NCBI RefSeq assembly: GCF_030013205.1
Contig: NZ_CP122648.1
Length of the DNA stretch: 64,000 bases
DNA from: Escherichia coli
GTDB taxonomy: Bacteria > Pseudomonadota > Gammaproteobacteria > Enterobacterales > Enterobacteriaceae
Reading direction: 5' to 3' (one strand)
Below are positions 51,001 through 57,000 of this stretch, piece by piece. Made by a program: the position numbers. Each line of letters starts with the position of its first letter. Position 1 is the stretch's first letter.

Positions 51001-54000
51001 TTTCTCAAAGAACATGAGTTTCTGGTTGGTATTTCGATCGATGGCCCCCAAGAACTACATGACCGTTACAGACGCAGTAATTCAGGTAACGGTACTTTTG
51101 TAAAAGTGATAGCAGCCATCGAGCGTCTGAAATCTTATCAAGTAGAGTTTAATACGTTAACCGTCATTAATAACGTTAATGTCCATTACCCTCTTGAGGT
51201 TTATCATTTTTTAAAATCTATCGGCAGTAAACATATGCAATTTATCGAATTGCTCGAAACCGGGACGCCGAATATTGATTTCAGTGGTCATAGTGAGAAC
51301 ACATTCCGTATCATTGATTTTTCTGTGCCTCCTACGGCTTATGGCAAGTTTATGTCGACCATTTTTATGCAATGGGTTAAAAACGATGTGGGTGAAATTT
51401 TCATCCGTCAGTTTGAAAGCTTTGTCAGCCGTTTTTTGGGGAATGGGCATACCAGTTGTATTTTCCAGGAGTCCTGCAAGGATAATCTGGTTGTTGAAAG
51501 TAATGGAGACATTTACGAATGCGACCATTTTGTCTATCCACAGTACAAAATTGGAAACATTAATAAATCTGAACTCAAAACGATGAACAGTGTTCAACTG
51601 ACAGCGCAAAAAAAACGGATTTCAGCGAAATGTCAGCAATGTGCATATAAACCTATCTGCAATGGCGGTTGTCCTAAGCATCGTATTACTAAAGTAAACA
51701 ATGAGACTGTTTCCTATTTTTGTGAAGGTTATAAAATCCTTTTTTCAACCATGGTACCTTATATGAACGCCATGGTGGAGTTAGCTAAGAACAGAGTACC
51801 GCTTTACCACATCATGGATGTTGCAAGACAAATGGAGAATAATTAATAACGCTCCCTCTTAGCTCCAGTCTTAGCCTCCTTCTTATGACCTTAACAATGC
51901 ACCTGACACATATTCCTGTCGGGTGTTTCGTCATCATCATCTTCCCTTGCGAAAATCCTGGCTTACGTGGTATGCGTCAGGGCATTAGCAATATCCTTGA
52001 TTATCAATAGCATAACCATAACCACTGAAAATGAAATATTCCTTTATATTTCATATTGTTAAATGATACTTAAATAAATTTCATCAGTAAATCATTGCCA
52101 TAGATAATCATTGGATGGCACAATCAATTTTCGCTAATGATAACCATTCCCATTACGTTTTGTATGTTGATAGCAAAGTATCTCTGTCTGCTGAAGCCCT
52201 TTTGGCTGCGTAAGAATAATAAAACTTCAGTGCTGTTAATCATTATTATCCTCGCCATGATCCTTGGCGTTGTTAAAATTCAGGTCTGGTTAAACGACTG
52301 GAATAATGATTTTTTCAATGCGCTAAGCCAGAAAGAAACCGATAAGCTTTGGCAGCTTGTTCTTTGGTTCCCTGCCCTGCTGGGGATCTTTGTATTAATA
52401 TCCGTAAACAAAACATGGTTAATTAAACTACTGACTATTCGCTGGCGCGAATGGTTAACAGATTACTACCTTAATCGCTGGTTTGCAGATAAAAACTACT
52501 ACTTCACGCAAATCTACGGCGAGCATAAAAATACAGATAACCCTGACCAACGTATCGCTGAGGACATTCTCTTGCTGATCAGTAAAACGCTCAGCCTTTC
52601 ATTTGGCTTCATCCAGTCGCTTAGCATGCTGATCACCTTTACCGTTATTCTTTGGCAAAGCGCGGGTACGCTCTCATTCACTGTTGGTGGAACAGAATGG
52701 AATATCCAGGGGTATATGGTCTATACCGTCGTGCTCATTGTGATCGGTGGAACTTTATTTACTCATAAGGTGGGTAAACGTATTCGTCCGCTTAATGTGG
52801 AAAAACAACGTAGCGAAGCGACATTTCGAACTAATCTTGTGCAGCATAATAAGCAGGCTGAACTGATTGCGCTAAGCAATGCTGAGTCTCTACAACGCCA
52901 GGAGTTGAGCGACAATTTTCATACCATTAAAGAGAACTGGCATCGTTTAATGAATCGTCAGCGCTGGCTTGATTACTGGCAGAATATTTATTCGCGCTCG
53001 CTTAGCGTTCTTCCCTACTTTCTGTTATTGCCACAGTTTATTAGCGGACAGATCAATCTGGGCGGACTGATGAAATCGCGCCAGGCATTTATGCTGGTAT
53101 CGAACAATTTAAGCTGGTTTATTTATAAATATGACGAACTTGCTGAACTGGCTGCGGTTATCGATCGTTTGTATGAGTTCCATCAACTCACCGAACAGCG
53201 CCCTACGAATAAGCCTAAAAATTGCCAACATGCGGTACAAGTGGCTGACGCGAGTATTCGGGTAATGACTCCAACTTACTGATAGTGTTTTATGTTCAGA
53301 TAATGCCCGATGACCTTGTCATGCAGCTCCACCGATTTTGAGAACGACAGTGACTTCCGTCCCAGCCTTGCCAGATGTTGTCTCAGATTCAGGTTATGCC
53401 GCTCAATGCGCTGAGTATAACGCTTGCTGATAACGTGCAGCTTTCCCTTCAGGCGTGATTCATACAGCGGCCAGCCATCCGTCATCCATACCACGACCTC
53501 AAAGGCCGACAGCAGGCTCAGAAGACGCTCCAGTGTGGCCAGAGTGCGTTCACCGAAGACGTGCGCCACAACCGTCCTCCGCATCCTGTCATACGCGTAA
53601 AACAGCCAGCGCTGACGTGATTTAGCACCGACGTAGCCCCACTGTTCGTCCATTTCAGCGCAGACAATCACATCACTGCCCGGTTGTATGCGCGAGGTTA
53701 CCGACTGCGGCCTGAGTTTTTTAAGTGGCGGAAAATCGTGTTGAGGCCAACGCCAATAATGCGTGCACTGGCGCGACATCCGACGCCATTCATGGCCATA
53801 TCAATGATTTTCTGGTGCGTACCGGGCTGAGAGGCGGCGTAAGTGAACTGTAGTTGCCATGTTTTACGGCAGTGAGAGCAGAGATAGCGCTGATGTCCGG
53901 CGGTGCTTTTGCCGTTACGCACCACCCCGTCAGTAGCTGAACAGGAGGGACAGCTGATAGAAACAGAAGCCACTGGAGCACCTCAAAAACACCATCATAC

Positions 54001-57000
54001 ACTAAATCAGTAAGTTGGCAGCATCACCAGTATTCGTACTCCTGATAATAAGATCATATTAGAGAACCTGAACTTTCATGTTTCGCCAGGCAAATGGCTA
54101 TTACTGAAAGGTTACTCTGGTGCGGGAAAAACCACACTGCTTAAAACATTATCCCACTGCTGGCCGTGGTTCAAAGGTGATATTTCTTCTCCTGCTGACA
54201 GTTGGTATGTGTCACAAACACCGTTAATCAAAACCGGCTTACTGAAAGAGATTATTTGTAAAGCACTTCCCCTGCCCGTAGACGATAAATCGTTGAGCGA
54301 AATACTGCATCAGGTTGGTCTGGGGAAATTGGCTGCGCGTATTCATGACCACGATCGCTGGGGAGATATTCTTTCCAGCGGCGAAAAACAACGTATCGCC
54401 CTGGCACGATTAATTTTACGACGTCCGAAATGGATATTTCTTGACGAAACTACCTCTCATCTTGAGGAACAAGAGGCTATCCGCTTACTGCGTTTAGTGC
54501 GTGAAAAACTACCCACAAGCGGCGTCATTATGGTTACACATCAACCCGGTGTCTGGAACCTGGCTGATGATATTTGTGACATTAGCGCGGTTTTATAAAA
54601 ACAATAAAAGCCCTGCTGTACGGAGATAAAAATAAATGAAGCGAGTTCTTATTCCTGGCGTCATTTTATGTGGCGCTGATGTGGCGCAGGCCGTCGATGA
54701 CAAAAACATGTACATGCATGTTTTTGAAGAGATGACGGTCTATGCTCCTGTCCCTGTACCCGTAAACGGCAACACGCATTACACCAGTGAAAGCATCGAG
54801 CGTTTACCGACCGGGAATGGCAATATCAGCGATCTGCTGAGAACCAACCCTGCGGTACGCATGGATTCAACGCAAAGTACCTCATTGAACCAGGGAGATA
54901 TTCGCCCTGAGAAAATCTCTATTCACGGTGCGTCGCCCTACCAGAATGCCTATTTGATTGACGGTATTAGTGCAACTAATAACCTGAACCCAGCGAATGA
55001 GTCCGATGCCAGTAGTGCAACCAATATTAGCGGGATGTCACAGGGGTATTATCTTGATGTCAGCTTACTGGACAATGTGACGCTTTATGACAGTTTTGTG
55101 CCGGTTGAATTTGGTCGCTTCAATGGCGGGGTAATTGATGCAAAGATCAAACGCTTCAACGCTGATGATAGCAGCGTGAAACTGGGTTACCGCACTACGC
55201 GTTCGGACTGGTTAACATCGCATATCGATGAGAATAACAAGAGCGCATTTAATCAAGGCTCTTCAGGAAGTACTTATTACTCCCCAGATTTTAAAAAGAA
55301 CTTTTATACTTTGTCATTTAATCAGGAACTCGCTGATAACTTCGGCGTTACCGCCGGTTTATCGCGCCGCCAGTCTGATATCACCCGCGCGGATTATGTT
55401 TCGAATGACGGCATTGTCGCCGGTCGGGCACAGTATAAAAACGTTATCGATACCGCATTGAGCAAATTTACCTGGTTTGCCAGCGACCGCTTTACCCACG
55501 ATTTTACCTTAAAATATACCGGCTCCAGTCGTGATTATAATACCAGCACCTTCCCGCAGTCTGATCGCGAAATGGGTAATAAATCCTACGGTCTGGCATG
55601 GGATATGGATACGCAGCTCGCATGGGCCAAACTACGTACTACCGTTGGTTGGGATCATATTAGTGATTATACCCGTCACGATCATGACATCTGGTACACC
55701 GAACTTTCATGTACATATGGTGATATTTCAGGGCGTTGCACCCGTGGCGGATTAGGACACATTTCCCAGGCTGTAGATAATTACACCTTCAAAACACGCC
55801 TGGACTGGCAAAAATTCGCCGTGGGTAATGTTTCGCATCAACCCTACTTCGGCGCGGAATACATCTATTCCGATGCTTGGACTGAACGCCATAACCAGTC
55901 TGAATCCTATGTGATTAATGCTGCAGGAAAGAAAACTAACCATACCATTTACCATAAAGGTAAAGGCAGTCTGGGAATTGACAACTACACGCTGTATATG
56001 GCGGATCGCATTAGCTGGCGGAATGTGTCGTTAATGCCCGGTGTGCGGTATGACTATGACAACTATCTGTCAAACCACAATATCTCCCCGCGATTTATGA
56101 CGGAATGGGATATTTTTGCTGATCAAACCTCAATGATTACCGCAGGTTATAACCGTTACTATGGCGGGAATATTCTTGATATGGGATTACGTGATATCCG
56201 CAATAGCTGGACGGAATCGGTATCAGGCAATAAAACCCTGACGCGTTATCAGGATTTGAAAACGCCTTATAACGATGAACTGGCAATGGGGTTGCAGCAG
56301 AAAATCGGTAAGAACGTTATTGCGCGTGCAAACTATGTTTATCGTGAAGCGCATAATCAAATCAGTAAAAGCAGTCGTACCGACAGCGCGACTAAAACCA
56401 CCATTACTGAATATAACAACGACGGCAAAACCAAAACGCATTCGTTCAACCTCAGTTTTGAACTGGCCGACCCCCTGCATATCAGCCAGGTAGATATTAA
56501 CCCGCAAATTGTCTTTAGCTATATCAAGAGCAAGGGCAACTTGTCGTTAAACAATGGTTATGAGGAAAGCAATACCGGTGATAACCAGGTGGTTTATAAC
56601 GGTAATCTGGTCTCTTACGATAGCGTTCCAGTGGCAGATTTTAATAACCCATTAAAGATCTCCTTAAACATGGATTTCACGCATCAACCGAGCGGGTTGG
56701 TGTGGGCGAATACGCTGGCCTGGCAAGAAGCGCGTAAAGCTCGCATTATCCTGGGTAAGACGAATGCGCAATACATCAGCGAATATTCAGATTACAAGCA
56801 GTATGTTGACGAAAAACTGGATAGCAGCCTGACCTGGGACACCCGCTTGTCCTGGACGCCACAATTTCTGAAACAACAAAACCTGACGATCAGTGCCGAT
56901 ATTCTCAATGTACTGGATAGCAAAACCGCTGTTGATACAACGAATACTGGCGTGGCGACCTACGCCAGTGGCCGTACCTTCTGGCTTGATGTCAGCATGA

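What the first reader, a model, noticed from the sequence alone, without database searches (positions are those of the whole stretch)
53253..54036. Complete IS1 copy inserted in yddA with an 8-bp target duplication
The IS1 ends (23-bp inverted repeats) are intact and flanked by the direct repeat agtattcg, and removing the element and one repeat copy restores a continuous yddA frame. This looks like a recent insertion. It separates the membrane domain from the ATPase domain, and because yddA lies upstream of yddB and pqqL on the same strand it may be polar on them.
Basis: seen in the sequence. Interest (0 to 1): 0.5.

Follow-up and report, generated by a model that had tools for sequence, protein, structure and literature searches.

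The report
IS1 insertion splitting the yddA gene
It is an ordinary gene knock-out already annotated in seven public pig-derived E. coli genomes.

Summary
A 768-bp IS1 lies at 53261-54028, with its transposase genes on the minus strand. Its terminal inverted repeats match 19 of 23 positions. It is flanked by a perfect 8-bp duplication, AGTATTCG (53253-60 and 54029-36). Removing the IS and one repeat restores a 561-aa YddA, 1 nt different from the uninterrupted allele of a Danish swine isolate that carries the target once.

The insertion is in codon 375, between the SbmA/BacA-like membrane domain (to about aa 350) and the ATPase domain (from aa 383). The truncated ORF ends 22 nt into the IS. No canonical in-frame start precedes the Walker A motif downstream.

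The IS1 is an IS1F/IS1X-type isoform, 93.4% identical to K-12 IS1A. It has intact insA, insB' and the A6C frameshift site. Identical copies occur elsewhere in the same strains.

The exact allele is in 7 of 5,426 complete E. coli genomes, all porcine, from Belgium and South Korea. RefSeq already annotates it as two pseudogene halves plus an IS1 transposase.

Polarity on yddB-pqqL is plausible but untested. The verdict is correct, ordinary and already known.

One side result: yddA is a recurrent IS1 target, with at least 19 independent events, 7 of them within nt 1090-1135.

The parts
52134..52151 (-). Putative Fur box overlapping the yddA start codon (GGGAATGGTTATCATTAG as written on the - strand)
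   Evidence: Exact match to the motif reported for CFT073 in PMC3855560.
52137..53260 (+). yddA 5' part: codons 1-374 plus 2 nt, covering the whole SbmA/BacA-like membrane domain. The open frame runs on to a stop at 53280-53282 inside the IS, giving a 381-aa product ending ...[12 protein letters not shown]
   Evidence: RefSeq annotates the same stretch in K_EC180 as a pseudogene 'missing C-terminus'.
53253..53260 (.). Left copy of the 8-bp target-site duplication AGTATTCG (yddA nt 1117-1124)
   Evidence: The sequence is single-copy in the empty-site alleles.
53261..54028 (-). IS1, 768 bp, IS1F/IS1X-type isoform, with transposase genes antisense to yddA
   Evidence: Identity is 93.4% to K-12 IS1A, 96.0% to K-12 IS1F and 97.3% to an IS1X2-annotated copy.
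53261..53283 (+). IS1 right inverted repeat (IRR), adjacent to the yddA 5' part
54006..54028 (-). IS1 left inverted repeat (IRL). It overlaps the weak insA promoter-like site CTGCCA-16-TATGAT at 54021..53994
   Evidence: Promoter location within IRL is as described in PMC12428005.
53698..53973 (-). insA, 91 aa, GTG start
53276..53973 (-). insAB' transposase, 232 aa, made by a -1 frameshift at the A6C motif (AAAAAAC at 53722..53716). The insB frame is open over 53276..53779
   Evidence: The reconstructed product has 13 aa differences from K-12 InsAB'. It matches NCBIfam NF033558 at 242.8 bits, cut-off 100. RefSeq annotates the identical CDS as WP_236281370.1, 'programmed frameshift'.
54029..54036 (.). 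Right copy of the 8-bp target-site duplication AGTATTCG
54037..54598 (+). yddA 3' part: codons 375(3rd nt)-561 plus the stop codon, the ABC ATPase domain. An in-frame stop lies at 54011 in the IS end. The first canonical in-frame start is GTG at 54209, downstream of the Walker A motif (GYSGAGKT, about 54113-54136)
   Evidence: RefSeq annotates it as a pseudogene 'missing N-terminus'.
54636..57008 (+). yddB, TonB-dependent outer-membrane receptor, intact at 790 aa. It starts 37 nt after the yddA stop
   Evidence: Function is from PMC6793856.
57053..59848 (+). pqqL, periplasmic M16 metallopeptidase, intact. The longest ORF starts at 57053; the RefSeq start corresponds to 57065
   Evidence: Function is from PMC6793856.

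Best explanation
A single IS1 element of the IS1F/IS1X sequence type transposed into codon 375 of yddA in an ancestor of a porcine enterotoxigenic E. coli clone. It made the staggered cut typical of IS1 and so duplicated 8 bp of target, AGTATTCG.

**Shown.** The element is complete and looks transposition-competent. The gene was otherwise intact. The insertion truncates YddA after its SbmA/BacA-like membrane domain, leaving 374 native aa plus 7 IS-encoded aa. The ATPase domain is left without a usable start codon, so the ABC transporter is inactivated.

**Inferred.** yddA-yddB-pqqL is one Fur-controlled transcript. After the insertion, transcripts from the yddA promoter must cross about 1.35 kb of untranslated RNA before yddB: the antisense strand of IS1 plus the orphan yddA 3' end. 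IS1 is classically polar in both orientations through Rho-dependent termination. Expression of yddB and pqqL is therefore probably much reduced. The IS1 promoter points the other way and cannot replace the yddA promoter.
For: - **Anatomy.**, as detailed in the observation check.
- **Restored gene.** The restored 561-aa ORF is shown. The empty site in CFSAN018748 (swine, Denmark) differs by 1 nt in yddA and 3 nt in 5.3 kb, with a single AGTATTCG. The K-12 allele is 98.2% identical and 561 aa.
- **Domain boundary.**
- **Transposase integrity.**
- **Identical IS1 copies.** 100% identical copies lie at other chromosomal and plasmid sites of the same and related porcine strains.
- **Independent assemblies.** The identical left junction is in 7 independently assembled complete genomes and the right junction in 6. 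RefSeq annotates it as IS1 plus two pseudogene halves.
- **Duplication length.** 8- or 9-bp duplications are the stated norm for IS1 (PMC12428005). In my survey 4 of 16 natural yddA::IS1 alleles with an intact duplication have 8 bp.
- **Operon context.** yddABpqqL is co-transcribed and de-repressed in a fur mutant (PMC3855560). The Fur box is present here. The system is a Fus-like protease-associated import system (PMC6793856).
- **No replacement signals.** No promoter-like site above chance lies between the IS and yddB. No canonical in-frame start precedes the Walker A motif, and a stop lies at 54011.
Against: - Nothing contradicts the structural part.
- **For polarity:**
  - No expression data exist for these strains.
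  - yddB and pqqL are still intact ORFs. This fits a recent insertion, but also continued expression and selection.
  - A weak promoter-like site (GTGACA-18-AACAAT, 54576-54605) lies just upstream of yddB, though the scan found no more sites than chance.
  - C-over-G enrichment on the untranslated strand is only modest.
  - The statement that IS1 is polar in both orientations rests on my recollection of the classical gal/lac literature. I could not retrieve those papers.
Confidence: 0.95

Rival explanations
1. The insertion is real, but it has little or no polar effect. yddB-pqqL would still be expressed, by read-through across IS1 or from a secondary promoter near the end of yddA.
For: yddB (790 aa) and pqqL (931 aa) remain intact. 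A weak promoter-like match lies at 54576-54605. No strong intrinsic terminator is predicted on the + strand inside the IS; the only candidate is a 5-bp stem at 53888-53902, and the number of sites is within chance.
Against: The genes are co-transcribed from the Fur-regulated yddA promoter (PMC3855560). About 1.35 kb of untranslated RNA precedes yddB. IS1 is classically polar (recalled, not retrieved). The promoter scan is not above the shuffled expectation, 7 found against 5.6 expected.
Confidence: 0.3
2. The recurrent IS1 disruption of yddA, including this allele, is driven by selection for loss or remodelling of YddA rather than being a neutral accident. One example would be escape from a toxic substrate imported by this SbmA/BacA-like transporter. 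Another would be retention of an ATPase-less, SbmA-like membrane protein.
For: 300-bp yddA segments are interrupted in 37 of 4618 and 32 of 4617 genomes. The figures are 7 of 4627 for yddB and 7 of 4652 for pqqL. At least 19 independent IS1 events hit yddA. Seven of them fall at nt 1090-1135, the linker between the membrane and ATPase domains. Other strains carry nonsense alleles, for example CFSAN061763.
Against: Genome counts are not independent events, since clones are over-sampled. IS1 has known regional target preferences, which could explain the excess without selection. The other 12 events are spread through the membrane domain and would destroy any SbmA-like function. No phenotype is known.
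Confidence: 0.12
3. Assembly artefact: an IS1 copy was wrongly placed in yddA by the assembler.
For: IS1 is multicopy, 19-22 places per chromosome in these strains, which can confuse assemblers.
Against: A perfect 8-bp duplication is the biochemical signature of real transposition. Identical junctions occur in six to seven separately assembled complete genomes from two countries. One derivative, ETEC4069, shows a further rearrangement at the same IS.
Confidence: 0.01

Closest known systems
IS1 isoforms IS1F (E. coli K-12) and IS1X2 (ISfinder/PGAP naming)
   Same: Both are 768 bp with the same end repeats. That includes C rather than T at position 19 of IRR, and the same insA/insB' organisation with the A6C frameshift site. 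Identity is 96.0% to K-12 IS1F and 97.3% to an IS1X2-annotated copy in strain MIN9.
   Different: The copy is not identical to either. PGAP labels its transposase (WP_236281370.1) only as 'IS1 family'. Unlike K-12 IS1F, whose insB is annotated as a pseudogene, this copy has open frames. Exact copies are almost confined to porcine ETEC/STEC chromosomes and plasmids; only 150 of 9,595 records have a copy at 99% identity or more.
IS1A, the K-12 'consensus' IS1
   Same: Same length, architecture, 232-aa InsAB' and IRL sequence. Both make 8- or 9-bp target duplications (PMC12428005).
   Different: There are 51 nucleotide differences (93.4% identity) and 13 amino-acid differences in InsAB'.
Other natural yddA::IS1 alleles in E. 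coli (for example 98233, D53-1, HL15, TO6, 23CRST036 and GTEN_24)
   Same: All are simple IS1 insertions in the same gene with 8- or 9-bp duplications. Six others lie within 35 bp of this site.
   Different: They are independent events. Most involve IS1A/IS1B-type elements, at different target sequences and in either orientation. Several carry adjacent deletions: strain 127 lost ydeN-ydeM and the yddA 5' part, and 2018-01-1CC lost the yddA 3' part and the yddB 5' part.

Membership tests
IS1 family insertion sequence | Length of about 768 bp, bounded by imperfect terminal inverted repeats of about 23 bp beginning GGT | tested here: met
   The element is 768 bp. The repeats lie at 53261-83 and 54006-28 and match at 19 of 23 positions. 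They are the only two hits in the window, with 0 expected.
IS1 family insertion sequence | Two overlapping frames, insA and insB', with an A6C slippery site that gives a 232-aa InsAB' transposase by -1 frameshifting | tested here: met
   insA is 91 aa and the insB frame is open. AAAAAAC lies at 53722..53716, and the reconstructed InsAB' is 232 aa.
IS1 family insertion sequence | The transposase matches the curated IS1 transposase model above its cut-off | tested here: met
   NCBIfam NF033558 transpos_IS1 scores 242.8 bits against a cut-off of 100. The N-terminal zinc-binding domain model NF050000 is also met.
IS1 family insertion sequence | Target-site duplication of 8 or 9 bp | tested here: met
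   The 8-bp AGTATTCG is on both sides and single-copy in the empty sites. The norm is as stated in PMC12428005.
IS1 family insertion sequence | Ability to transpose | not testable with these tools
   Only indirect evidence exists. Many 100% identical copies lie at different loci in the same strains, and this copy shows a secondary rearrangement in ETEC4069.
YddA (SbmA/BacA-like membrane domain fused to an ABC ATPase; first gene of the Fur-regulated yddA-yddB-pqqL operon) | An N-terminal SbmA_BacA/ABC_membrane_2 domain followed by an ABC_tran domain, in a protein of about 561 aa | tested here: met
   In the restored protein, PF05992 covers aa 32-350, PF06472 aa 28-301 and PF00005 aa 383-515. 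There are 4 aa differences from K-12 YddA.
YddA (SbmA/BacA-like membrane domain fused to an ABC ATPase; first gene of the Fur-regulated yddA-yddB-pqqL operon) | Genomic context ydeM - yddA - yddB - pqqL, with a Fur box at the start codon | tested here: met
   The context is described in PMC3855560.
YddA (SbmA/BacA-like membrane domain fused to an ABC ATPase; first gene of the Fur-regulated yddA-yddB-pqqL operon) | An uninterrupted, functional coding sequence in this window | tested here: not met
   The gene is interrupted in codon 375 by IS1, so the window carries a pseudogene.

The most novel reading that the evidence does not exclude
The 46-bp stretch of yddA that encodes the linker between the membrane and ATPase domains (nt 1090-1135) is a previously undescribed natural IS1 hot spot. 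Alternatively it is a target of convergent selection. Under the selection reading, repeated IS1 hits there, including this one, would generate an ATPase-less, SbmA-like YddA and/or silence the YddB-PqqL protein-import system in gut and animal-associated E. coli.
Probability: 0.1. Interest if true: 0.4.

Novelty: already known. Interest (0 to 1): 0.13.

Why it matters
For this strain the finding matters only locally. One clone of pig enterotoxigenic E. coli lacks a working YddA, and probably has reduced YddB and PqqL. Those proteins form a Fur-regulated, Fus-like protease-associated import system that contributes to systemic fitness in uropathogenic E. coli (PMC3855560, PMC6793856). The insertion is a convenient clonal marker for that lineage.

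The wider survey adds a small population-genetic point. yddA is hit by IS1 unusually often across E. coli, and the hits are concentrated at one 46-bp spot. That spot could serve as a natural test case for IS1 target choice, or for selection against this transporter.

Tried and rejected
- **A 9-bp duplication.** Rejected, because the bases flanking the 8-mer differ.
- **A composite transposon or second IS1 nearby.** Rejected. The window has only the two IS1 ends.
- **yddA already dead before the insertion.** Rejected. The restored ORF is intact and 1 nt from an intact allele.
- **An outward hybrid promoter from the IRL end into the yddA 3' part.**
  - TTGGCA at 54015-20 has no acceptable -10 hexamer at 16-18 bp.
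  - The scan finds none on the + strand there.
- **Orientation bias of IS1 in yddA.**
  - All the early hits had the same orientation, but that was an artefact of my junction queries.
  - A query with the IS reversed found as many alleles: 48 against 43 genomes.
- **Cause of the local cluster of insertions.** It remains unexplained.
  - No match of 15 or more of 23 positions to either IS1 end occurs anywhere in yddA.
  - No IHF consensus is present, and there is no unusual A+T richness at nt 1080-1140.
- **Whole-gene hot spot, tested by simple segment counts.** The segment around the site (37 broken genomes) is no worse than a control yddA segment (32). Both are about 5-fold above yddB and pqqL.
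- **Literature.**
  - The classical papers on IS1 polarity and the Mahillon-Chandler review are not held.
  - No paper linking chromosomal yddA and IS1 insertion was found.
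Full report
**What is in the sequence.**
- Reading 53100-54200 and parsing it shows a 768-bp element at 53261-54028.
- Its ends are GGTAATGACTCCAACTTACTGAT on the + strand at 53261-83 and GGTGATGCTGCCAACTTACTGAT on the - strand at 54006-28.
- These are the only two matches to the IS1 end consensus in the 64-kb window, with none expected in shuffles.
- They match each other at 19 of 23 positions, which is the normal imperfect IS1 repeat.
- AGTATTCG abuts both ends, at 53253-60 and 54029-36.
- The next base outward differs on each side, so the duplication is 8 bp and not 9.

**The element.**
- On the minus strand it carries insA (53973..53698, 91 aa, GTG start).
- The insB frame is open over 53779..53276, and the AAAAAAC slippery site lies at 53722..53716.
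- A -1 shift there gives a 232-aa InsAB'.
- InsAB' scores 242.8 bits against NCBIfam's IS1 transposase model, whose cut-off is 100.
- The element differs from K-12 IS1A at 51 of 768 positions (93.4% identity) and at 13 residues of InsAB'.
- It is 96.0% identical to K-12 IS1F and 97.3% to a copy annotated as IS1X2.
- Exact copies occur at other chromosomal sites, for example near selB in K_EC180, and on plasmids of porcine ETEC, O139 and O141 strains.
- Only 150 of 9,595 records with an IS1 match have a copy at 99% identity or more.

**The interrupted gene.**
- Joining 52137..53260 to 54037..54598 gives a 561-aa ORF with no internal stop. Leaving both repeat copies in gives 9 stops.
- The restored gene is 98.2% identical to K-12 yddA, with 4 aa differences.
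- It differs at a single nucleotide from the uninterrupted yddA of CFSAN018748, a Danish swine isolate.
- That isolate's 5.3-kb neighbourhood differs at only 3 positions and has one copy of AGTATTCG at the target.
It shows a clean, simple insertion into a gene that was otherwise intact.
- Pfam places the SbmA_BacA and ABC_membrane_2 membrane domain at aa 28-350 and ABC_tran at aa 383-515.
- The insertion is in codon 375, so it does separate the two domains.
- The upstream frame runs 22 nt into the IS and stops, giving ...[12 protein letters not shown], 381 aa.
- Downstream, an in-frame stop lies at 54011 in the IS end. The first canonical in-frame start, GTG at 54209, is past the Walker A motif. 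A functional free ATPase domain is therefore not expected.

**Distribution.**
- The left junction is 100% identical in 7 of 5,426 complete E. coli genomes, and the right junction in 6.
- The carriers are K_EC180 (swine, South Korea) and ETEC1748, 4067, 4069, 4070, 4071 and 4079. ETEC4069 and ETEC4079 are recorded as swine isolates from Belgium.
- RefSeq already annotates the locus as two pseudogene halves flanking an IS1 family transposase with a programmed frameshift.
- The window is 99.97-99.98% identical to K_EC180 over 61 kb. Most of the differences are homopolymer-length differences.
- The insertion is therefore real, clonal, and younger than the split from CFSAN018748-like relatives, but older than the international spread of the clone.

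**Consequences.**
- The genes yddA, yddB (54636-57008) and pqqL (57053-59848) lie on the + strand with 37- and 44-nt gaps.
- In CFT073 they are co-transcribed and de-repressed in a fur mutant, and a Fur box overlaps the yddA start codon (PMC3855560). The same 18-mer is present here at 52134-52151.
- YddB and PqqL form a Fus-like, iron-regulated protease-associated import system (PMC6793856).
- YddA has also been proposed to be a multidrug efflux pump (cited in PMC11253626).
- After the insertion, RNA from the yddA promoter is untranslated for about 1.35 kb before yddB.
- The IS1 promoter points away from yddB. The consensus scan finds no promoter-like site above chance between the IS and yddB.
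- From the classical behaviour of IS1, which I recall but could not retrieve, I infer substantial Rho-dependent polarity with about 0.6 confidence.
- yddB and pqqL are still intact, which fits a recent event but does not prove silence.

**Is an 8-bp duplication odd?** No. PMC12428005 states that IS1 makes 8- or 9-bp duplications. Among the natural yddA::IS1 alleles I mapped, 4 of the 16 with an intact duplication have 8 bp.

**Side result: yddA as a recurrent IS1 target.**
- I used the whole yddA::IS1 sequence as the query, with the IS in either orientation. This ranks genomes that have IS1 anywhere in or next to yddA above IS-free genomes.
- It gave 43 and 48 genomes respectively.
- Mapping representatives (positions) gave at least 19 independent events.
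- Their yddA positions are nt 74, 268, 465, 547, 559, 617, 640, 703, 865, 942/965, 973, 1090, 1097, 1101, 1110 (twice), 1124 (this one), 1135 and 1180.
- The two events at 1110 are in opposite orientations and share the same 9-bp duplication, CAAGTGGCT.
- Seven of the events lie within nt 1090-1135. A scan-statistic simulation under uniform insertion gives P of about 5e-5 for 7 of 19, and about 1e-3 for 6 of 18.
- An early impression of orientation bias was an artefact of my queries.
- I found no resemblance to the IS1 ends, no IHF consensus and no unusual A+T richness at the cluster. Its cause is unexplained.
- At coarser scale, 300-bp yddA segments are interrupted in 37 of 4618 and 32 of 4617 genomes, against 7 of 4627 for yddB and 7 of 4652 for pqqL.
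- These are genome counts, not independent events, so they are only suggestive.
- No paper in the held library links chromosomal yddA with IS1.

**Verdict.** The finding is correct in every structural detail and its interpretation is sound. It is an ordinary IS1 knock-out allele that public annotation already records. Interest is low. The only mildly new point is the recurrent, locally clustered IS1 targeting of yddA across E. coli.

Noticed in passing
window 53226-53271 equivalent (yddA nt 1090-1135); loci L001-L004, L016, L018, L030: Seven independent natural IS1 insertions from unrelated E. coli strains fall within 46 bp of yddA. Their positions are nt 1090, 1097, 1101, 1110 (twice), 1124 and 1135. 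At least 19 events were mapped in the 1686-bp gene. The uniform-null scan statistic gives P of about 5e-5. No sequence feature explains the cluster.
   Followed up: partly
L003 (strain 98233) and L018 (strain D53-1), yddA nt 1102-1110: Two independent IS1B-type insertions used exactly the same 9-bp target, CAAGTGGCT, in opposite orientations.
   Followed up: partly
window 52137-54598 versus 55700-55999 and 58300-58599: Across 5,426 genomes, 300-bp yddA segments are interrupted about 5 times more often than comparable yddB and pqqL segments: 37 and 32 genomes against 7 and 7. Some IS-free alleles are also dead; CFSAN061763 has an internal stop at codon 231. Recurrent loss of yddA may reflect IS1 target preference or selection.
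   Followed up: partly
L008 (ETEC4069, NZ_CP122679.1 2582348-2583649): This carrier has the same left junction and IS1, but the right side joins a glutathione S-transferase gene and ansP instead of the yddA 3' part. That indicates a secondary IS1-mediated rearrangement, or a misassembly. The genome size is almost the same as ETEC4067, so a simple 50-kb deletion seems unlikely.
   Followed up: no
L004 (2018-01-1CC; also ET220 and ET245) and L030 (strain 127 and five others): These strains show IS1-associated adjacent deletions anchored in the same yddA stretch. One removes the yddA 3' part and the yddB 5' part. The other removes ydeN, ydeM and the yddA 5' part, with its left flank at window position 48534-48573, just downstream of ydeO.
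   Followed up: partly
window 1036-1470, 39976-42627, 50674-51846 versus K_EC180 (L007, L001): marR, the fimbrial usher and ydeM are annotated as 'frameshifted' in K_EC180 but are intact ORFs in the window. The differences in the usher and ydeM are single-base homopolymer lengths. marR differs by a 7-bp stretch plus one base of a T run. The K_EC180 pseudogene calls could be assembly errors rather than biology.
   Followed up: partly
window 22985-27777 and 29974-30871: An ECSE_1600-family autotransporter gene is split into 157-aa and 1431-aa ORFs in different frames. A LysR-type regulator is split into two overlapping ORFs. Both are also annotated as frameshifted in K_EC180, so they may be genuine pseudogenes of this lineage.
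   Followed up: no
window 53261-54028: Exact copies of this IS1 isoform are nearly restricted to porcine ETEC/STEC strains, including O139:H1, O141:H4 and UMNF18, on both chromosomes and plasmids. This suggests plasmid-borne spread and recent expansion in pig-associated lineages.
   Followed up: no
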